A DNA stretch of 64,000 nt from positions 9,952,629 to 10,016,628 of the forward strand of contig JARFYF010000064.1 in assembly GCA_030265395.1 (NCBI GenBank). The letters are read 5' to 3'. The notes under the pieces were generated by a model. The model was not told the origin of the DNA and did not search any database. It was given only the letters and a program-made list of their open reading frames with translations. Positions 7,300 to 38,420 of this stretch are shown here, piece by piece. Position 1 is the first letter of the stretch; each line of letters begins with the position of its first letter. Origin of the DNA: Rhina ancylostomus. Lineage: Eukaryota. The translations under genes and the position numbers were made by a program.

Positions 7300-8580
7300 T
7301 TATAACTCTCACTGGATGCAGACTCGGAGATATTGGATGTTACGGTGATATAGGTTCAATTGTTACTGACTGTCCTTGAGATACAGGTTCCACAGACACC
7401 CTTAGCCACTGGATGGGGGTTTCATGACACAGTGTCTCATTGGATAGGGTTTCAGAGACACTGACATTTCCCCATTGCCACTCGCTTCTACTCCCCCTCC
7501 CACTCCATCACAGATATGTCAGCCCTTGGCCTCCTCCACTGCCAGGAGAGTTCCAAGTGCAACCTGGAGGAACAGCACCTCATTTTCCATCTTGCAGCTG
7601 AACCGCCTGAAGATTGAANNNNNNNNNNNNNNNNNNNNNNNNNNNNNNNNNNNNNNNNNNNNNNNNNNNNNNNNNNNNNNNNNNNNNNNNNNNNNNNNNN
7701 NNNNNNNNNNNNNNNNNNNNNNNNNNNNNNNNNNNNNNNNNNNNNNNNNNNNNNNNNNNNNNNNNNNNNNNNNNNNNNNNNNNNNNNNNNNNNNNNNNNN
7801 NNNNNNNNNNNNNNNNNNNNNNNNNNNNNNNNNNNNNNNNNNNNNNNNNNNNNNNNNNNNNNNNNNNNNNNNNNNNNNNNNNNNNNNNNNNNNNNNNNNN
7901 NNNNNNNNNNNNNNNNNNNNNNNNNNNNNNNNNNNNNNNNNNNNNNNNNNNNNNNNNNNNNNNNNNNNNNNNNNNNNNNNNNNNNNNNNNNNNNNNNNNN
8001 NNNNNNNNNNNNNNNNNNNNNNNNNNNNNNNNNNNNNNNNNNNNNNNNNNNNNNNNNNNNNTGAAGAAGGGTCCTGACCCAAAACATTGACTGCCTGCTT
8101 TTCTCCACGGATGCTGCCTGGCCTGCTGAGTTCCTCCAACATCATAGTGTTTTACATTCAGAGAAACTGACTCTCATTGGATGGGGCTTCAAGACACAGA
8201 CTCTTATTGGATGGCGTTTCACAGACACAGACTATTAATGGATAAGGTTTCAAGACACAGACTCTCATTGGATGGGGTTTCACAGACACTGACTCTCAAT
8301 GGATGGAATGTGGGGAAGGTGTGAGGAAGATACTTGGGCACAGACTGTCTACTCTCACCAGGTGGGGATGTGTGGGGGCTTTCACAGACACGCTGGATTG
8401 ATGGTTGGGAGGGGGCTGATGGAGGGTTCCACAGACTGATTAGATCGATGTTTCATAGACATTAACTCTCACTAATGAAGGAATTTTAGAGGCATATGAT
8501 TCTCACTGGGGAAGGGATCCAATGAACATTGACTTTCACTGGACCGTGGGTTCCACAGTCACACTGGGAAATGGGTTTGA
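7300..8580. repeat. Degenerate 30/31-bp tandem array, split by a Penelope insertion
   Basis: Unit ~ctctcattggatggggtttcacagacacaga. Unit starts at 8171, 8201, 8232, 8262 and 8293; the same unit occurs at 7300-7470. Confidence 0.85.
7470..8158 (+). mobile_element. Penelope-like element 3' part (GIY-YIG C-terminus, gap, pLTR end)
   Basis: The frame from 7474 reads IATRFYSPSHSITDMSALGLLHCQESSKCNLEEQHLIFH. After the gap comes tgaagaagggtcctgacccaaaacattgactg...ctgctgagttcctccaacatc. Confidence 0.85.
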
Positions 8581-19153: not shown

Positions 19154-19372
19154 CAAACAATCTTCTGGATGAACTCAACAGGTCAAGCAGCATCTGTTGG
19201 GGGGAAGGAATTGTTGAAGTTTCAGGTTAAAACCCTGCACCAGACAGTCCTGATGCAGGATCTTGATCCAAAACATTGACAACTTCTTTCCCCTCACAGA
19301 TGCTGGCTGACCCACTGAGTTCCTCCAGCAGATTGTTTGTTGCTCCAGATTCCAGCACCTGCAGTCTCTTCC
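19154..19372. mobile_element. Back-to-back inverted Penelope pLTR ends
   Basis: caaacaatcttctggatgaactca at the left end mirrors tgagttcctccagcagattgtttg at 19317-19339; the centre is near 19245. Confidence 0.8.
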
Positions 19373-24139: not shown

Positions 24140-24512
24140 GTGGGAAGGGAATCAGTGGGAGGAGTGTGTGGGTGATGAGCAGCTGGAGTGGGTGGAGGAA
24201 GGGAATGAGACAGAGTACTGGGGGCTGGGTAGTTCAGGAGGAGAGGGAAAAGGGACAAACATGGAGCATTTTACCAGAAGCTGGAGATTTCAGTTCAACC
24301 TGGATCCACCTATCGCCTGCCAGTTCTTGTTCCACCACTTCCCTTCACCTTTTTACATTGGCTATTTCCCCTCCATCTTCCAGTCCAGATGAAGGGTCTC
24401 CATCCAAAATGTGGACTGTCCATTTCCCTCCATAGATGCTGCCTGACCCGCTGAGTTCCTCTAGCCTTTTGTGTGTTGCTCCAGATTCCAGCATCCGCAG
24501 TCTCTTGTGTCT
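24140..24512 (+). mobile_element. Penelope pLTR with an inverted purine-rich segment
   Basis: cagtccagatgaagggtctccatccaaaatgtggactg...gatgctgcctgacccgctgagttcctc. Confidence 0.75.
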
Positions 24513-25479
24513 CTATTAATGAACTGTGATTGGGGATATTACAGCGTGCTGACACCAACAGTAATGAAGGTATTAAAGTATGCTGAAACAACAGTGATGG
24601 AAATATCACAGTGTCCCTGCCACATTAGTGATGGGGACATTGCGGTCTGCTGACACACTGTAACGGTGATTTTATTGTGTGCTGCAACAATATTAATCGG
24701 GGTGGTGAAATCAACTTTTCGACTCATTTGCTGAAGCATATGAGAGTATAGGTCTCACACTCAACATAGCAGTGGGAAAATTAATGTGTTCTGACATGCA
24801 GCGTTGGAGATTATTACAGAGTAGTAACACACAGTGATGATATTACTGTGAAAACAAGAAGATATTACAACGAGTTACCACAATAATAATGGAGATATAA
24901 CATTGTGCTGAAAGTTGTATTGGAGATATTATAGCAATCAAAATATTACAGTTGTTGCTCAGCAGTGATGGAGATAATGCAACACAGCTAGAACAATGAT
25001 AGAGATATCAGTGAACTGCCACCACACTGCAACAGATTTGGGGATGTTTCAGAGTTCTGAAACAATAGTAATGGAGATATTACAGTTTGCTGAAAAAGTA
25101 ATGATGGAGATATTACCAAACTCTGACATAATAGTGATGGGGATAGCCATGTAAAGGAACAACAGTCAGAAAGATATGACAGTTATGACAAGTGTTATGG
25201 ACATCTATATGCTGGCACAGCTGTAATAGGGATATTATAGTGTGCTGTTACAAAGTAATGGAGATATTACAGTGTGCTGAAACAATGGTGGTGGATATAT
25301 TACCGTGAACCACAACATGTATGGAGATATAACAACATGCTGAAACAATGCAAATGAAAATATTACAATATGATGCCACAAAAGTAATGGAGGTGTTCAA
25401 GTGTAGTGAAATAATGCAATGGATATATTGATGTGAGCTGCCAAAAAGAGTGATGAATATATTAGTAACATAGAAAATA

Positions 25480-26960
25480 GAAGCAACAAGAGGCCATTCA
25501 CACCTGGGGCCTGATCTACTGTTCAATACAATTATGGCAGATCATCCACTTCACTTCCCTCTCCCCATTACCTCTTTGGAATTAAGAAATATATCTATCT
25601 CCTTCTTGAATATGTTTATTGGTTTGGTCTCCATTGCCTTTTGTGGGAGAATTGCATGGGTTCATCACTTTCTGGATGAACAGATTTCTCCTGATACCCC
25701 ATATCCTGAGGCTGTGACCACCATTCATGACTCTTTAGCCACTGGCAACATGGTCCCATTTATTTAATCCTGTCTGGAGTTTATTAATTTCTGTGAGATA
25801 TCCTCTCATTTTTTTGTACTTCAGTGAACGTAAGCCTGACTGACCCAATCTCTCCACATATGTCAGTTCCTCCATTCCAAGAATCAGAAAAATACCTGGA
25901 GATTCACAGCGTTATAGAGCACAGAAACAGGCCCTTTGGCACAACTCATCCATGCCGACCAAGATGCCTATCTAAGCTAATCTCATTTCCCTGCATTTGG
26001 CCAATATCCCTTTAAACCTTTCCTATCCATGTACCTGTCCAAATGTCTTTTGAACATTTTAATTGTACCTGAATCTGTCACCTCCTCTGGCAGTTCATTC
26101 CATTTACCCCACCATCCTATGTGTGGAAAACTTGCCCCTCAGATCCCCTTTAGATCTTTCCCTTCTCACCTAAAATCTAGACTCCCCTACCTTGGGAAAA
26201 AGACTGTGACTATGTATCTATGCTCCTCATAATTTTATAAACCTCTATAAGGTTATCCCTCAGCCTCCTTCACAGAGAAAGCAGTTCCAGTTGATCCAAT
26301 CTCTCCTTATAACTCAAGCCCTCCTGTTCTTGTGAATTATTTCTCCATCCTCTCTAGCTTAATTAAATCCTTCTTATCATGTGGTGACCAGAACCACACA
26401 CCCAATACTCCAAGTGTGGTCCAACCAACACTTTGTGCAACTATAACATGTCCCAATTCATGTATTCATTGCTATGGCTGAAGGAGGCAAGCATGCCATA
26501 CACCTTCTTTACCACCCAGTCTACCTGTATTGGCACTTCCAGGGAAATATATTGCACTTCGGTCTCTCTCTGTTCAATACCACTCTCCAGGACCCTGCCA
26601 TTCATGGTGTATGCCCTGGCCTGGTTTAACTTCCCAGAATGCATCACTTTTCACTTGTCTGAGCTAAATTCCGTCTGCCATTCCTCTGCCACTTTCCCAG
26701 TTGATCAATAACCTGTTGCAATGGTAAACCACCTTCTTCACTGTCCACTATACCACCAATGTCGGTGTCATTTGCAAACTTACTAATCTACCTTTCCATT
26801 TTTGGAATGAATGTGAATACCCCAAGATTCCACATTAAAATACATCTGCCCTGCATTTTCCCACTCACCCAACTTGTCTAAATCACACGGGGTCCTCTCT
26901 GCACCCTCCGCATAGCTCAGATTATGTCCCCACCCCTGCCCACCAGCCGCTTCCACCTTT
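25480..26960 (-). mobile_element. Nested CR1 LINE fragments (RT C-terminal region and 3' end)
   Basis: ORF 26441-26647 reads QVDWVVKKVYGMLASF. A younger 3' end (cacagaaacaggccctttggc) starts at ~25905 inside an older copy. Confidence 0.85.
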
Positions 26961-29747
26961 TTAGTGTAGTCTGTATAACCAGAGATATCAGTGTGCTGAT
27001 GGAGATATTGTGCTCCAGTAAGGGAGATATTACAGTGTGCTGAAACACAGTGATGGATTGATTACAGTGAGCTTCCCCAACTTTTATGAGAATGTGTGCT
27101 GAAACAATAGCAGTGGGGATATTACAGCGTGATGCTACAACGCCAATGGAGATATCACAGTGAGTTTCAGCAACAATGATATAGATGTTACAGCATGTTG
27201 ACACAACAGAGAGAGTGATATTATTATGTGCCACTACAAAAGTAATGGAGATATTAAAGAATGATGGAACACAGTAATGGAGGGAATCACCTTGAGATGC
27301 CAAAACACTGACGGAGATATCACAGTGATTTAAAAGGATATAATAATGTCCTAAAGTACTGGGGATATTACCATTTGATGGTCTAACAATGGTGTAGAGT
27401 TACATTGAGCTACAAAAACAGTGATGAGGACATTACAGAGTTCTGATACAATAGTGGTGCAGCTGTTACAGTGGGCTGACACACAGTGTTGAGGATATTA
27501 CATTGCACTGAAACAACAATGATAAAGATGTTACAGTGCACTTCCACAAGATTTATGTTGACATCACAGCATGCAGAAAGAAGATGATGGAGGTATTACA
27601 GTGTGATTCTACAACAGTGATGGAGATATAATAGTATGTATATTGAAATAAAAGTGATAAAGATATTACGCTGAGCTTTCACAGCAGGGATGGAGATGCA
27701 GAAAACAGTATTAGGGATATTGCGGTGTGCTACCACAAGTGTTGGAGATCATGTAGTATTCTGGCATGCAATGATGGGGCATTACAATGTGCTGACACAC
27801 AGTGATAGAATTGTTACAGTATGCTGCCACAACAGTGCTGGTGATATTGCAGTATTCTGGCACACAGCAATGGAGATACTTTGGTGTGCAGACACACAGC
27901 AATGAGGATATTACAGTAAACTGCCACAACATTAATGAAGATATTACAGTTTGCTGACACAATGGTGATGATATTATATTGTACTGAAACAACAATGTTA
28001 TGATATTACTGTGTGCTGACACAGTAACAGTGTGATGCCACAATAGTGATGGGGATGTTACAGGTTGCTGCCACAAGAGTCATGGATACATTTTTGTGCT
28101 GAAACTAATGGGGAAAACTACAGTGTGTAATCACAGTGTGCTGACACAGGTAACAGAGGTATTACAGTGTGCTGAAACAATAGTGAAGAGGATTTTGCAA
28201 GGTTTTTCCCCACAGCAGAGCATATTACAATGGGCTGATACACAGTCATGGGGATATTACAATGTTGTATAATGACAGTGTGTTGATACAAATGTGCTTT
28301 TATTATTGCTGTGTGCAGGGATAACATTATAGATATTGCAATTTGCTGATGCAGCAGTGATGTGGATATCTCAGTGTGCTGAGCACTGCTGTGGTGGGGA
28401 TAATATAGAGTACAGTTGATGGTTTTTACAAAGTGTTTACAATGCAATGCAGTGGATTTTTCCACCATCTTTATCCTGTTGGAACCTGAGGTTTGAACCT
28501 TTTATTCTCTGTATATTCCATCCCTACTGAGTATTGCTCACTCTCTTTACTCTGCAGCTTCAGAAACCTGCCACTGACAGAGGTAGATGGTCCAAAGTGG
28601 TTCACTCTGTTGCATGTAATTGGTCCCTTCTGTTCCTGACTAAACTCTTGGGTTTCATTTAATATGAAAAAGTGATTGGTCCAGAAGAGTTTCTCCCCTT
28701 CAGGTTGAGTACCGATTTGAATTGATTATTTATTCCCAAACTCCTCAAGTTATCAGCCACCTGACAACTGGTCAATTGCCTTCTCGTATGCTGACTGACC
28801 TGCTGTGAATTTTCAGCAATCAGTTTGTTTTATTATTATAAGTAAAAGGAATATTTGTGGCTGTAAACTGCCATTGGATATATCCACAGGAACTTATTGA
28901 CAGATTACTGAAATACTAAACAGATGTTTGTTTGGAAAGGCACCCACTTCATTGAGTCCCAGTGCTTTGATCCATGAGACCTTACCATCAGCTACTTCGG
29001 AAAATATTCCGACGAAGTCATCTGAGTTGAATTGATGTGTGAATAGCAAAAAGCCAGTATGCTTTCATTCCATTCTAACACCATTCTTAAACTCAAGTGT
29101 CTCCTTCACTGACCTGCTCTGTTGAACAAGAGATGGAAGATGAAGTTTCGAGCTCTCAAATTCTTTCACTGCTGATGCTGTCAGTGCATTTGTGCTTCAC
29201 TCAGCCCTATCCTCAGTGAACAAACATTTCTTTAACTGTAAACACCATCAAAACATTCAGCCACACACGTATTTTAGGCTTTGAATAAATGTCAAACAGC
29301 ATTTGTTTAATCTAAGGCGTGCTTGTGGAGATGACGAAGGATTATACTGACTGGGAGTAATTAAATCTCTTTCACCTTGTATTATTATTCCCAGACCTCC
29401 AGTAAAAGTGACTGATCTGCAGCTTATGGAGAGATCTAGCTCATGGGATCAACAGCATAATCTTGTTTTATATGTAAAACCTCCAAATCATAACAGTGTG
29501 CTATGCTGAAATCGCAAAGCACTGAATTTATTTCCAAACTTTAAAATGATGGCACATTTCATTCTGTCAGACATTTTCTGTCTTTACAATGTCCTGGAAT
29601 TTCTGGGGAGGTCTCATCCATCACACTCCCTGTTAGCCTAAATTCACATTGCACTCCTCCACCACTTCCAGGAAAGTAACACTAGCAACAAAGATTCTCC
29701 CAGAGCCAACAGTGCATGTCCTAGATGATGGCAGGGTCTTTCACATA

Positions 29748-31810: not shown

Positions 31811-32784
31811 ATGAAAAGTAACCAAGGCACATGTGTGGGCGAATTAAACCCCACCCATAAATCCTCAGAAGACTTCTAGAACTTCTAACTGATGAAAAAG
31901 CATTGCCCCTCCCTGCCCACTTTATCGTCTCTCAAAGCTGTCAAGATTTCCAATGCCTCTGAAAGAAAATTAAAAACAAAATTGCAAACACAGATAATTA
32001 GAAAAGGTATTTGTATTATTTTTACCTCTCGTCCTTGCAGATGAAAATCCCAGTTTAATGAATGGGCAGTAACTCGACACATGATACAGAGCAGATTCCC
32101 CAGTGTACGGGCTGGGAATTTTCAGCATGTTGCTGCATCCACCCATGAGTCCCAAACCTGCTGGAACTGATGAGGATAAGTGTGGGGAACTGGTGGCAAA
32201 ACCAGCAAACTCCACGCTAAAGTGTATCTGAGTAAACGGAGTGCGTGGCCAAACCAAAACATTGTCATCCATGTTGCACATTCTAATTAATGTCTTCCTT
32301 TCTGTCACAGTGCGTGTGGTTAACAGGGTAGGCCACCCTGAGAAAATAGCCCAGACTGTTTTGATGCAGAATAGTGCTGGCTTAATGTTCAGTATTCACA
32401 GTGATAAAGGCTACTTAATTCATTTATAAATATGTTGCAGATTTTGTCTTTATTTCTATTTGTTTAGAAGCCTGAGGTANNNNNNNNNNNNNNNNNNNNN
32501 NNNNNNNNNNNNNNNNNNNNNNNNNNNNNNNNNNNNNNNNNNNNNNNNNNNNNNNNNNNNNNNNNNNNNNNNNNNNNNNGGGGCACTGATCTTTGGTCTG
32601 GTTACATTTTGACAAGATGGGCTGGGATCTCACAACCATACATAAGGTGCTGGGGTGGAGAAGTGCAAAGCCTGTATAAAACTGATGGGAAGTTCCTGAA
32701 GAAACCTCCCCTCTTCTTGGAGACGGTGTTGTGCTTGTGGGTTGCATCTCTCCACTGGTCCTCTCTCTCTCCCATGGATGGAAC

Positions 32785-33190
32785 ATGCTGCTGGTGCTAC
32801 ATAAATGTGGCTCTTGTTCCTGCTGGTACATTTCCTTTTGCTGGTGCAATTCCTGCTGGTGCTGTTCCTGCTCTGGAAGGAAGAGCTTCTGTTCCTGCTG
32901 GTGCAACTCATGCTGTTGCTCCTTCTGCTCTTGCTGGTGTTTCTCCTGCTGGTGCTTCTCCTCCTCCTGCTGGTGCTGCCCCCCCCCCCACAGCCAGTGC
33001 TGTTCCTGTACAGCTGGTGTGATTCCTATTCCTGCTGGTGCTGCTCCTCTCGGCCCAACTCCTGCTGCTCTTGTTCCTGTTGGTGCTCTTCCTGCTGGTT
33101 CAGTTCCTGTTGGGTTGCTCCTTTCCTGCTGGTACTCCTCCTAATCCTGCTGATATGGTTTTGCTCCTTCTGGTCCTGCCCTGGACCCAG
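32785..33190. repeat. Degenerate 15-bp minisatellite (cctgctggtgctgtt)
   Basis: Recurrent (t)cctgctggt at roughly 15-bp multiples. Translates as PAGAV-like units (+) or QQEQH-like units (-). Confidence 0.8.
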
Positions 33191-33407
33191 TTACTCCCTA
33201 TCCTTAGTGGGATTGGTCTTCCTTTCACGTACAGTTATCCCTTTACCTTGATCCCCTTGTCAATTCCAGAGTGTCAAGGAGCTCATAAGATTTTCTTTTT
33301 ATTGTTCTCCATTGGCCTCCAGGCCAGAATGNNNNNNNNNNNNNNNNNNNNNNNNNNNNNNNNNNNNNNNNNNNNNNNNNNNNNNNNNNNNNNNNNNNNN
33401 NNNNNNN

Positions 33408-33974: not shown

Positions 33975-34295
33975 ACAGCAAGGACACAGAGTTCACACCA
34001 ACATTCACTCACATTAATCTCATTTTCAATTCTCCCCACATTCTCATCAACTTCACCCAGATTCCACCACTCACCTACTGTCCAGGGACAACTTACAGCG
34101 GTCAGTAACCTACCAACTCACACATCTTTGGGATGTGGAAGGAAACCGGAGCACCCAGGGGAAACACTCACATGATCACAGGGGAAACACTCACATGATC
34201 ACAGGGAAAACTCCACACAGACAGCACCGGAGGTCAGGATTGAACCCAGGTGTCTGGTGCTGTGAGGCTGCACCTCTCCGAACTGCACCACCCAT
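33975..34295 (-). mobile_element. HE1-type SINE with an internal 23-bp tandem duplication
   Basis: catctttgggatgtggaaggaaaccggagcaccc; caggggaaacactcacatgatca occurs twice (34156, 34179). Confidence 0.8.
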
Positions 34296-35099
34296 GCTGT
34301 CCTTGTGTGTCACTCAGGTGTGGTTTGTGAAAGCTGCATAAAGGGAAAGAACAGCATACTAACTGTGGCACCATGCGATGAATTAAGTCCTTGCATAACC
34401 AGCACACCGTTTCCTATTGACCTGTTGCATGTTCACAGGTTTGTCATTTAACTCAACAGGTGCAGCCAGCTCTTAAAGAGATGGTTCTTAAAGGGACATA
34501 ATACAGTACATGCAACACTCTTGCAGATGCAGGGGAGTGTTGTTACAGAATGAATGAATGCCACAGTGGTAGTTATGAGAGTTTAACCCTTGAGACCAGA
34601 GCTACCAGGACATCCTTTTGAAGCTTGTTCAGAGCACAAAGGAGCCACAGAAACTCTCCACAGTTACAGCCAAACTTCACTGGCACGTCACTGGAATTTG
34701 ACATTTTAAAATTCCCTTTACCATGACCACAAGGACGTGAGTGAAGCTATGAATGACAGTACAGGCCAATGCCTGCACTCATTCTGCCTGCTCCGAAGGG
34801 CTGAAAGAAAAGTAGGTGAAGTCTCCTTCCTGTATGACCCACAACTGTGAACAGCAAACCATGGGATGTACTGAGGTTAGCAGGAGCAGTCCTGTGGAAT
34901 GGTCCTGAGGCTAGAAAGCTGAGAGTGACGCAGATCCTGACCTGCATGGCAAAGGTGTGAAAGTATATGTGAGGTCACAGGAGGTGACAGAGCTCAGCAA
35001 GGACAACAAACACAGTATGAGTGTCAGAGCATGGGAAATGGATTGAGTAAAGCTTGATTCTTCTTAGCAATAAAGAGCTGTCATTCTTCAGACCAAAGA

Positions 35100-35465
35100 G
35101 GTTGTTGATCTCCGACCCCCACCATGCTTCCCTTCTTCCCTCTCCTAGCCTATCTCTCTTTTTTCTACCTCTTTTTTCCTTTCTCTCCTCACCTTTGACC
35201 CATTCCTCTGGTGGATCTGCTCTCCCCTCCTCCCTCACACCCGCCTATCACTCCCTCTTACCTGCATCTACTATCACCACCTTGTTCCCACCCTGCCTCC
35301 CCTCTTTTGTTCACCTATCACTGCTCTGATCTTCCCTCCTAGATATTGGGCTTCCCCTTTTCCTATCTTCAGTCCTGAAGAAGGGTCCTGATCCGAAACG
35401 TTGACCGCCTGCTTTTCTCCATCGCCTGGCCTGCTGAGTTCCTCCAGCATCATAGTGTTTTTCAT
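35100..35465 (+). mobile_element. Penelope pLTR (pyrimidine-rich body and conserved end), young copy
   Basis: The end is nearly identical to 8062-8158, which is linked to a GIY-YIG remnant. Confidence 0.8.
35370..35407 (+). ncRNA. Minimal type I hammerhead ribozyme motif (Penelope-associated)
   Basis: CAGUC (stem I) - CUGAAGA - A - GGGU[CCUG]AUCC (stem II) - GAAA - C - GUU - GACCG (stem I'). The core boxes are intact and stem III is reduced to the palindrome ACGU. Confidence 0.7.
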
Positions 35466-35809
35466 ATTGATTCCATCAGTCCTTTCTCTAGGTTGTTGAT
35501 CTCACTGCAGCTAAACTTTTCATGTTACATGGCAGTTGACATGATTTGTAAGAGTTTTACACTGAAAAAAGTGCTAGGGAGAATGAAATTCCCACAGAAA
35601 AATGAGACAACTTTCCTGACAGGCACTAGGGCACCTGGAAATGTTCACAAACTGATCAATTCCAGGTTAAGCCAATTTTCAACAGCACAGTGCATTTTAT
35701 ATTTGGAGTTATGTGAACACATTTCTAGCCCAAGTGTTCAGAGCAAAGCAGAGCTATGAAAGTCATCAGAATCACAATCTGGGTGGTTATGAAGGGACTT
35801 TACTTCATT

Positions 35810-36204
35810 GCATGATGCTACAGTTAGTACAGCTGCTGCCTTATAGGCCCAGTAGCCCAGGTTTGATCCTGACCTCCAGTTTGCAAACACAAGAGACTGC
35901 AGATGCTGGAATGCGGAGCAGCAAACAACATGCTGGAGGAACTCAGTGGGTCAAGCAGCATCTGTGGGGAGAGGAACCATCAACGTTTTGGATCAAGACT
36001 TTGCATTGGTCCTTGTAACTATGCAGTGTTCCTCCAGGTGCTCTAGCTTCTTCCTACATCCCAAAGACATGCTGATTAGTAGGTTAATCATCCACTGTAA
36101 TTTGCCTTGAGCGGTAGAATCTAGAGGAAGTTGATGGGAATGTAGGAAGATTTAAATGGGATTAGTGAATGACTGGGATAAATATGTGCTTGATGGTCAT
36201 TGCA
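35810..36204 (+). mobile_element. HE1-type SINE interrupted by a minus-strand Penelope pLTR (~35885-36010)
   Basis: SINE head cccaggtttgatcctgacctcc, then acacaagagactgcagatgctgg...caacgttttggatcaagac, then the SINE resumes at cctacatcccaaagac. Confidence 0.75.
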
Positions 36205-37659: not shown

Positions 37660-38420
37660 TTTTTATTTCAAAAATAAACTTTACTCCTAAAAATATATAT
37701 ACAAGAAATACAAAAAAACAGTGTGTGGCTTTCTTTTCATTCATGGTGTCATTTAGTATATACATTCATAGTGCTATCAGTTCTATACGTTTGTAGTGTG
37801 AATGAGTTCTGTACACAGAGCACCATTGCCACTCATGTGGCCCCCTTTGGGTGATACAAACTTCTAGTGTTTGAGAGGCTTTTATACAGGGCTTAGCATC
37901 TCAATGTCTAGTGGAGGAAAGACCTTGGACTAAGTCCTTCACCACAAAACTTTTGTGTTGGCTACAGCAAGCTTCAGTGTGTCCCTTAGCACGTACTCCT
38001 GCCGCCTGGAATGTGCAGTCAGCAGCATTCCTTTATGGAGCTCTTGTTGTACTGGAAGACCAACAAATTTTAAGCAGATGAAAGAGCGTCTTTCTCCAAG
38101 GTGATGATCTTCCAGTAGCACTTGATGTCTGACTCAATATCAGAGATCACCGAATCCTTTGTTACCCAACTGCTCTGGATGAACCTTAACAAGACCCCTT
38201 GTATCCTTCTCCAGAGCTTCTTTGCAAATGCACAGTTCACAAAGAGGTGGGTGATCATCTCATCCTCATTGCAGCCATCCCAAGGGCAGCATGTGTTGTA
38301 AGTGAGAATCTAACCATGCAGGAAGAATCTGACAGACAGAGCCCCTCTCGCTGCCAGCCAAGCAAGGTCTTGATGCTTGTTGGTGAGTTCTGGTGATGAC
38401 ACATTCTGCCAGATGGTTTT
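37660..38420 (-). mobile_element. Tx1/L1-group LINE 3' end with zf-RVT zinc knuckle
   Basis: The minus strand gives C.WDGC.ED..ITHLFVNCAFAKKLW...CYWKIIT..KDAL and AHSRRQEYVLRD.LKL (frameshifted), ending near aataaa and an A-rich tail at ~37660-37700. Confidence 0.8.

What the first reader, a model, noticed from the sequence alone, without database searches (positions are those of the whole stretch)
35370..35407. Intact-core minimal hammerhead ribozyme in a Penelope terminal repeat
Seen: CAGUC-CUGAAGA-A-GGGUCCUGAUCC-GAAA-C-GUU-GACCG has type I hammerhead topology. Stem I is CAGUC/GACCG (4 of 5 pairs), stem II has 4 pairs, and the core boxes CUGANGA and GAAA are intact. An NUH triplet (GUU) would give cleavage after 35402, and stem III is reduced to the palindrome ACGU. 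Known: Penelope-like elements carry minimal hammerheads with palindromic stem III that are thought to act as dimers. Inference: this is the best-preserved copy in the window and might self-cleave, possibly only as a dimer, if transcribed on the + strand.
Basis: partly seen in the sequence, partly recalled or inferred. Interest (0 to 1): 0.7.

Follow-up and report, generated by a model that had tools for sequence, protein, structure and literature searches.

The report
Leftover Penelope retrotransposon end with hammerhead
The self-cutting RNA motif is really there, but it sits in a short, protein-less tail-end copy of a known kind of jumping gene that is repeated thousands of times in this genome, and it is likely an inert relic that stayed intact by chance, so it is ordinary.

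Summary
Observation confirmed. 35370-35407 is a minimal type I hammerhead matching the published consensus for Penelope-like elements (PLEs). It is the only one of 12 such remnants in the window with an intact core. It lies in a 377-bp insertion (35113-35489) between 14-bp direct repeats: a solo, 5'-truncated PLE 3' end with no coding sequence. Longer relatives carry RT, zinc-linker and GIY-YIG sequence just upstream, on the same strand in 76 of 76 cases (Neptune-like, inferred). The GUU site and the stem I mismatch are family traits, not decay. 321 genomic copies match the family motif exactly, so this copy (one G-C to G-U change) is unremarkable. Compensatory stem changes between subfamilies support a real structure in the mobile ancestors. 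After insertion the catalytic G12 decays like other CpG guanines (33 of 99), so copies show no clear selection. No intact same-strand partner lies nearby, and a predicted hairpin hides the core, so cleavage here is unlikely. The scan noted this family before in other windows of this genome. Side finding: sub-lineages with off-consensus cores (U4A, A9C) also amplified.

The parts
35099..35112 (+). 5' copy of a 14-bp direct repeat, read as the target-site duplication (inferred)
   Evidence: Identical to 35490-35503; a shared 14-mer arose in 1 of at most 5000 random window pairs
35113..35489 (+). Solo, 5'-truncated 3' end (pseudo-LTR) of a Penelope-like retrotransposon, 377 bp, no coding sequence
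   Evidence: 3202 first-look candidates, the 39 best other copies 84-89% identical; aligns at 74-89% to the segment that follows the GIY-YIG stop codon in longer copies
35113..35369 (+). Pyrimidine-rich (81%) 3' untranslated part of the element
   Evidence: in 4 longer copies checked the GAAA box lies 285-311 nt after the ORF stop
35366..35371 (+). Strand complementary to the core box (pairs with 35376-35381); predicted hairpin that hides the core
   Evidence: Predicted pair probability 0.69-0.99 in three flanked folds, against 0.03 or less for stem II; median 0.92 in 53 family copies; prediction only
35370..35407 (+). Minimal type I hammerhead motif: stem I, CUGAAGA, extra A, stem II with CCUG loop, GAAA, palindromic ACGU in place of stem III, GUU site with predicted cleavage after 35402
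   Evidence: matches the published min-HHR consensus; one difference (35392) from the family majority
35408..35465 (+). Downstream segment shared by all subfamilies; this copy has a 6-nt deletion after 35421
35466..35489 (+). Degenerate optional 'tail' of the element
   Evidence: Present in 67 of 138 family ends scored; alignment; optional 30-40 bp tails are described for PLEs
35490..35503 (+). 3' copy of the 14-bp direct repeat
7453..8157 (+). Second copy of the same subfamily in the window: GIY-YIG C-terminal remnant (7453-7611), assembly gap, hammerhead remnant with G12 changed (8062-8093)
35977..36014 (-). Nearest other hammerhead remnant: another subfamily, opposite strand, four core positions off consensus; not a cis partner

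Best explanation
This is the minimal hammerhead motif in a solo, protein-less 3' end of a Penelope-like retrotransposon (likely Neptune clade), and at this locus it is likely an inert relic whose core survived by chance. Shown: the motif, the insertion limits, the family, its place downstream of RT and GIY-YIG coding sequence in longer relatives, and CpG-rate decay of G12 among copies. Inferred for the mobile ancestor: a tandem transcript carried two hammerheads; their ACGU palindromes paired to build stem III; probably with help from the element's own protein, the RNA was cut after the NUH triplet. Inferred for this insertion: reverse transcription began at the tail, stopped after about 377 nt, and left a 14-bp duplication. 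Inferred for this copy today: as a monomer it has no stem III and its core box is predicted to be paired with the upstream strand, and it has no intact partner in cis, so cleavage in vivo would be negligible.
For: Family: 321 exact 37-mers, 0 in the reversed control; 1484 canonical-core matches. PLE link: 76 of 76 subfamily ends found 100-500 nt after a GIY-YIG C-terminus are on the same strand, among 151 C-termini examined. RT motifs, the CX2-5CxxC linker and CCHH spacing appear; Atlas neighbours at 0.95-0.96 carry GIY-YIG or RVT_1 in part of their members. Published consensus, with GUU sites common in its alignment. Decay: G12 changed in 33 of 99 copies against 38/101, 39/99 and 29/102 at other CpG guanines; non-CpG core in a fresh sample 13 observed against 12.1 expected. 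6 of 102 copies are as intact as this one. Compensatory changes between subfamilies. Published tests: a single min-HHR showed no cleavage and dimers were weak; the anole PLE hammerhead cut only with protein, and no RNA-seq reads ended at its site; 8 of 9 Xenopus dimers did not cleave.
Against: Raw divergence at the 10 non-CpG core sites is lower than in the flanks (44/983 = 4.5% against 740/11072 = 6.7%). In the first sample the deficit survived context matching (31 against 43.3, P=0.03; position-level P=0.006) and pooled it is borderline (44 against 55.1, P=0.07). This copy keeps all three CpGs inside the motif, and its insertion is shared with at least two related organisms, so it is old yet intact. 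The orthologous hammerheads could not be read. Pfam did not name the decayed ORFs: one GIY-YIG hit below its cut-off, none. Folding results are predictions. No host gene or transcription direction was established.
Confidence: 0.85

Rival explanations
1. The copy is an unselected relic but still cleaves at a low rate when transcribed on the + strand, by pairing in trans through its palindrome with another intact copy or with help from a PLE protein or chaperone.
For: The core is complete. At least 1484 canonical-core relatives exist in the genome. GUU is listed among active NUH sites. The palindrome extends to AACGUU, predicted duplex -3.5 against -1.7 kcal/mol for ACGU. Protein-assisted cleavage is published for a reptile PLE.
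Against: Stem II is weakened by G-U, stem I has 3 contiguous pairs, and the competing hairpin dominates predicted folds. Even linked dimers cut weakly in vitro. No intact full-length ORF was seen among the loci fetched.
Confidence: 0.1
2. This copy was domesticated: the host keeps it as a working cis-acting ribozyme in an intron or non-coding transcript.
For: Intact core with all three CpGs kept; insertion shared by two related organisms.
Against: 6 of 102 unselected copies are equally intact and 321 match better. The flanks of this copy diverged normally (6 of 106 sites plus a 6-nt deletion). It lacks stem III, so it is not predicted to work as a monomer.
Confidence: 0.03
3. The repeat is an independent non-autonomous element (SINE-like or retrozyme) that spreads as a fixed unit rather than a truncated PLE end.
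For: Many solo copies; retrozymes derived from PLE ends are described.
Against: 5' ends are ragged and run to variable depth into the GIY-YIG and RT coding sequence. There is no tandem array at this locus.
Confidence: 0.02

Closest known systems
Minimal hammerheads (min-HHR) of metazoan Penelope-like elements (Cervera and de la Pena 2014, PMC4209133; read main text parts 1-2 of 4 and supplementary file 2 parts 1-2 of 3)
   Same: Type I topology, CUGANGA plus one extra nucleotide, G10.1-C11.1 pair, palindromic 15.2-16.2 in place of stem III, NUH site (often GUU in their alignment), short helix I, U-rich 5' flank, mostly solo copies from truncated elements. The oyster entry has the same inner stem I and core spacing.
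   Different: Stem II is short (4 bp). No cartilaginous fish is among the species in their Figure S3. The upstream strand complementary to the core box is not mentioned in the parts read.
Neptune (or Nematis) clade endonuclease-positive PLEs (Craig et al. 2021, PMC8557442; passages read)
   Same: C-terminal GIY-YIG with CCHH spacing, CX2-5CxxC linker, strong 5' truncation, partial tandems and inverted copies, optional 30-40 bp tail, hammerhead near the 3' end.
   Different: Clade not placed on a tree here; no intact full-length element recovered; this insertion has a clean 14-bp direct repeat and is not in a microsatellite.
Poseidon element PAc of the green anole (PMC11167929; passages and section 3 part 2 read)
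   Same: Minimal hammerhead in the pseudo-LTR; optional tail, which there marks two reverse-transcription start sites.
   Different: PAc is of the Penelope/Poseidon clade, which lacks the linker, and its ORF starts inside the hammerhead; this subfamily has no ATG at that position (N7 is A).
Non-LTR retrozymes of animals (bioRxiv 10.64898/2026.07.22.740005, parts 1-3 of 5 read; PMC7229834, passages read)
   Same: Type I hammerhead in PLE-derived terminal sequence; one cartilaginous fish genome was positive in that survey.
   Different: Retrozymes are tandem repeats with a hammerhead in each unit; this copy is a solo end with a direct repeat on each side.

Membership tests
PLE minimal hammerhead (min-HHR) | Core boxes CUGANGA and GAAA with NUH | tested here: met
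PLE minimal hammerhead (min-HHR) | Extra nucleotide between 9 and 10.1, and a G10.1-C11.1 pair | tested here: met
   A35382; G35383-C35394; features listed
PLE minimal hammerhead (min-HHR) | Palindromic 15.2-16.2 instead of helix III | tested here: met
   ACGU 35398-35401; family majority
PLE minimal hammerhead (min-HHR) | Compensatory stem changes between consensus families | tested here: met
   Innermost stem I pair C-G in 88 of 113 subfamily A copies, U-A commonest (21 of 52) in D; pair 10.1-11.1 G-C in A, A-U (21) or G-U (12) in D; clusters made on the downstream flank only. Two events, one old and noisy subfamily.
PLE minimal hammerhead (min-HHR) | Self-cleavage as a dimer or with protein | not testable with these tools
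   needs in vitro assay
Canonical type I hammerhead (Rfam) | Stable helix III, longer helix I with loop-loop contacts; match to an Rfam model | tested here: not met
   no hammerhead family hit at E up to 10; the hammerhead-compatible monomer fold (-2.9) is not the lowest-energy fold (-4.7 kcal/mol)
Endonuclease-positive Penelope-like element | RT followed by C-terminal GIY-YIG upstream of the terminal repeat, same strand | tested here: met
   In relatives, not in this copy: (76 of 76 same strand); Atlas. Pfam gave one sub-threshold GIY-YIG hit and none.
Endonuclease-positive Penelope-like element | 5' truncation, inverted and partial tandem insertions, optional tail | tested here: met
   Ragged 5' ends; 27 divergent, 18 direct and 13 convergent neighbouring pairs, other subfamilies included, and tail in 67 of 138; 8 loci with ORF remnants between two same-strand ends
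Endonuclease-positive Penelope-like element | Intact ORF flanked by two terminal repeats | tested here: inconclusive
   none among the 280 loci fetched; assembly has many gaps in repeats
Neptune clade | CX2-5CxxC linker between RT and endonuclease | tested here: met
   complete in L074, partial in L069, decayed in L073; the linker is shared with Nematis
Neptune clade | Placement on an RT tree with reference elements | not tested
   no reference PLE proteins in hand; a survey reports only Neptune and Poseidon in vertebrates
Non-LTR retrozyme | Tandem units each with a hammerhead | tested here: not met
   no tandem array at the locus; single copy between direct repeats

The most novel reading that the evidence does not exclude
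In this PLE lineage the hammerhead is a protein-switched element: a built-in anti-core strand locks CUGAAGA until the element's protein remodels the RNA. Sister sub-lineages amplified with off-consensus cores (A at position 4, 252 matches; C at position 9, 223 matches). The genome would then hold a natural allelic series for asking whether PLE hammerheads must cleave at all for transposition.
Probability: 0.12. Interest if true: 0.5.

Novelty: new member of a known kind. Interest (0 to 1): 0.12.

Why it matters
As a single locus it matters little: it is one of thousands of decayed ends, and intact cores turn up by chance. The family extends the known PLE minimal hammerheads to what is probably a cartilaginous fish (taxon recalled from repeat content and earlier scan notes, not tested). 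The role of these hammerheads is an open question. Amplified sub-lineages with altered cores, and a predicted core-hiding hairpin, give ready natural variants to test whether cleavage is needed.

Tried and rejected
Rfam scan of the window: no hammerhead hit. Pfam on decayed family ORFs: one sub-threshold GIY-YIG hit, nothing; PDB sequence search gave nothing meaningful. Host gene: 150 of 361 stop-to-stop frames of 55 aa or more (window 26447-53359) scanned with Pfam, none above a curated cut-off; this does not show the site is intergenic. Expression: no RNA holder listed, which is no evidence either way. Orthologous hammerhead: contigs of related organisms break inside the repeat, so it could not be read; run X3 was not counted as bridging the junction. 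Rejected: that GUU or the stem I mismatch are decay (they are the family majority). Rejected as unproven: selection on the core after insertion; the deficit seen in the first sample did not replicate once context was matched in 32 new copies. Rejected as family-wide: the anti-core hairpin is 7 of 7 complementary in this subfamily but 4-5 of 7 in the others. A splice-acceptor reading of the downstream segment was dropped because this subfamily lacks the AG. Lunse et al., RNA Biol 14:1499, is not held; only its title was seen in a reference list. Searches for a description in cartilaginous fishes listed none beyond the 2026 preprint; its supplements, file 1 of PMC4209133 and Repbase were not seen and may already list this family. 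A search for U4A or A9C hammerhead variants by those labels found nothing relevant.

Full report
Observation. A strict descriptor matches once in the window and never in 100 shuffles. A profile of the downstream flank, plus the opposite-strand copy near 35980, gives 12 remnants of this repeat superfamily in the window; only this one keeps all 11 core positions and the ACGU palindrome. Rfam has no matching hammerhead model at E up to 10.

The insertion. The motif lies in a 377-bp segment, 35113-35489, between two identical 14-mers at 35099-35112 and 35490-35503 (1 chance match in at most 5000 random pairs). I read these as the target-site duplication. A genome search gave 3202 candidates, of which 40 were scored; the 39 other than this locus are 84-89% identical. 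Their 3' ends fall at two places, with an optional tail in 67 of 138 ends scored. Their 5' ends are ragged. Contigs of two other coded organisms cross the 5' junction with more than 31 letters on each side (X2 34741-35161; X5 34895-35198), so the insertion predates their split. A third run (X3) was inconclusive.

Link to Penelope-like elements. Longer relatives continue upstream into an ORF ending in a GIY-YIG-type domain with CCHH spacing, preceded by a CX2-5CxxC linker and RT motifs. Among 151 such C-termini in the fetched loci, 76 had a subfamily end 100-500 nt downstream, all on the same strand. Pfam barely sees these decayed frames. The protein Atlas places them at 0.95-0.96 next to eukaryotic clusters in which part of the members carry GIY-YIG (12-26%) or RVT_1 (10-62%). 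The linker marks Neptune and Nematis (PMC8557442, passages), and a vertebrate survey reports only Neptune and Poseidon (preprint), so Neptune is the likely clade; no tree was built. The window copy starts after the stop codon and has no coding sequence. No intact full-length element was seen in 280 loci; 8 loci hold ORF remnants between two same-strand ends.

Is the hammerhead real at family level? It fits the published consensus feature by feature, and GUU sites are common in that alignment (PMC4209133). The GUU site and the A-C mismatch in stem I are the majority state of this subfamily. Clustering 236 ends on the downstream flank alone gave five subfamilies and a cluster of 6 that was set aside. 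Between this subfamily and the most diverged one, the innermost stem I pair changes from C-G to U-A and pair 10.1-11.1 from G-C to A-U or G-U, with the core majority unchanged. That is two compensatory events, consistent with structural constraint while the elements were mobile (inference).

Is this copy special? It differs from the family majority at one motif position, a G-C to G-U change in stem II. 321 genomic places match the family 37-mer exactly, and 1484 match a canonical-core pattern. The catalytic G12 sits in a CpG and is changed in 33 of 99 copies, like the three other CpG guanines (38/101, 39/99, 29/102). The other ten core sites have lower raw divergence than the flanks (4.5% against 6.7%). 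After trinucleotide matching the deficit was significant in the first 70 copies (31 against 43.3, P=0.03), absent in 32 new copies (13 against 12.1) and borderline pooled (44 against 55.1, P=0.07). I read this as no clear selection after insertion; a small residue may reflect several source elements. 6 of 102 copies are as intact as this one, so one intact copy among the remnants of a 64-kb window is uncommon but unremarkable.

Could it cut here? Predicted folds put the hammerhead stems at 0.17 in the bare 38-mer and at 0.03 or less with flanks, because 35366-35371 pairs with the core box (0.69-0.99). The same hairpin is predicted in most family copies (median 0.92 in 53 of the 70 that had no gap or N). 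The nearest remnant is on the other strand with four core changes, and every same-strand remnant in the window has core changes or is cut off. In print, a single min-HHR did not cleave and dimers were weak. The anole element's hammerhead cut only with its protein, was not needed for insertion in vitro, and left no RNA-seq ends (PMC11167929). 8 of 9 Xenopus dimers did not cleave. Transcription of this locus was not established.

Side finding. Exact-pattern counts show 252 copies with A at core position 4 and 223 with C at position 9, of 2176 with those positions left free. In the 100 rows listed for each, they go mostly with their own loop II and N7 sequences, and they are the majority in three flank-defined clusters. 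They therefore look like amplified sub-lineages rather than random decay. Core changes usually cut activity sharply, with rare tolerated exceptions (PMC3088659, passages). Whether these variants cleave is untested.

Verdict. A real, correctly described motif of a known kind in a dead retrotransposon fragment. Six earlier notes of this scan describe the same family elsewhere in this genome; they are leads, not support. Interest 0.12.

Noticed in passing
G000 genome-wide; window examples 24381-24418 (+), 19245-19282 (+): Sub-lineages of the same repeat carry off-consensus hammerhead cores: A at position 4 (252 exact matches) and C at position 9 (223), against 1484 canonical. They appear to have amplified with these cores.
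   Followed up: partly
window 35366-35381: The 7 nt upstream are the exact reverse complement of the CUGAAGA box in this subfamily (7 of 7; 4-5 of 7 in the others) and are predicted to hide the core.
   Followed up: partly
window 35408-35465: The segment after the hammerhead is shared by all five subfamilies and folds into a predicted hairpin; a candidate protein-binding or reverse-transcription start region (inference). This copy has a 6-nt deletion in one arm.
   Followed up: partly
window 35397-35402: With U at position 17 the palindrome extends to AACGUU, which could strengthen dimer contact but pair away the cleavage-site base (inference).
   Followed up: no
window 19191-19330 and 86-257; loci L008, L029: Head-to-head pairs of element ends form fold-back structures; they account for weak Rfam miRNA and snoRNA hits. 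27 divergent pairs among fetched loci.
   Followed up: partly
window 34156-34330: tRNA-derived SINE-like piece with a short tandem duplication; the likeness to the HE1 SINE of sharks and rays is recalled, not tested.
   Followed up: no
window 32580-33330: Degenerate CTG-rich tandem region with long open frames on both strands, glutamine-rich on the minus strand; no Pfam hit above cut-off.
   Followed up: no
window 24978-28725: Diverged 32-33 bp tandem repeats spread over several kb.
   Followed up: no
window 38073-38309 (-): Weak zf-RVT match below cut-off, probably a LINE remnant.
   Followed up: no
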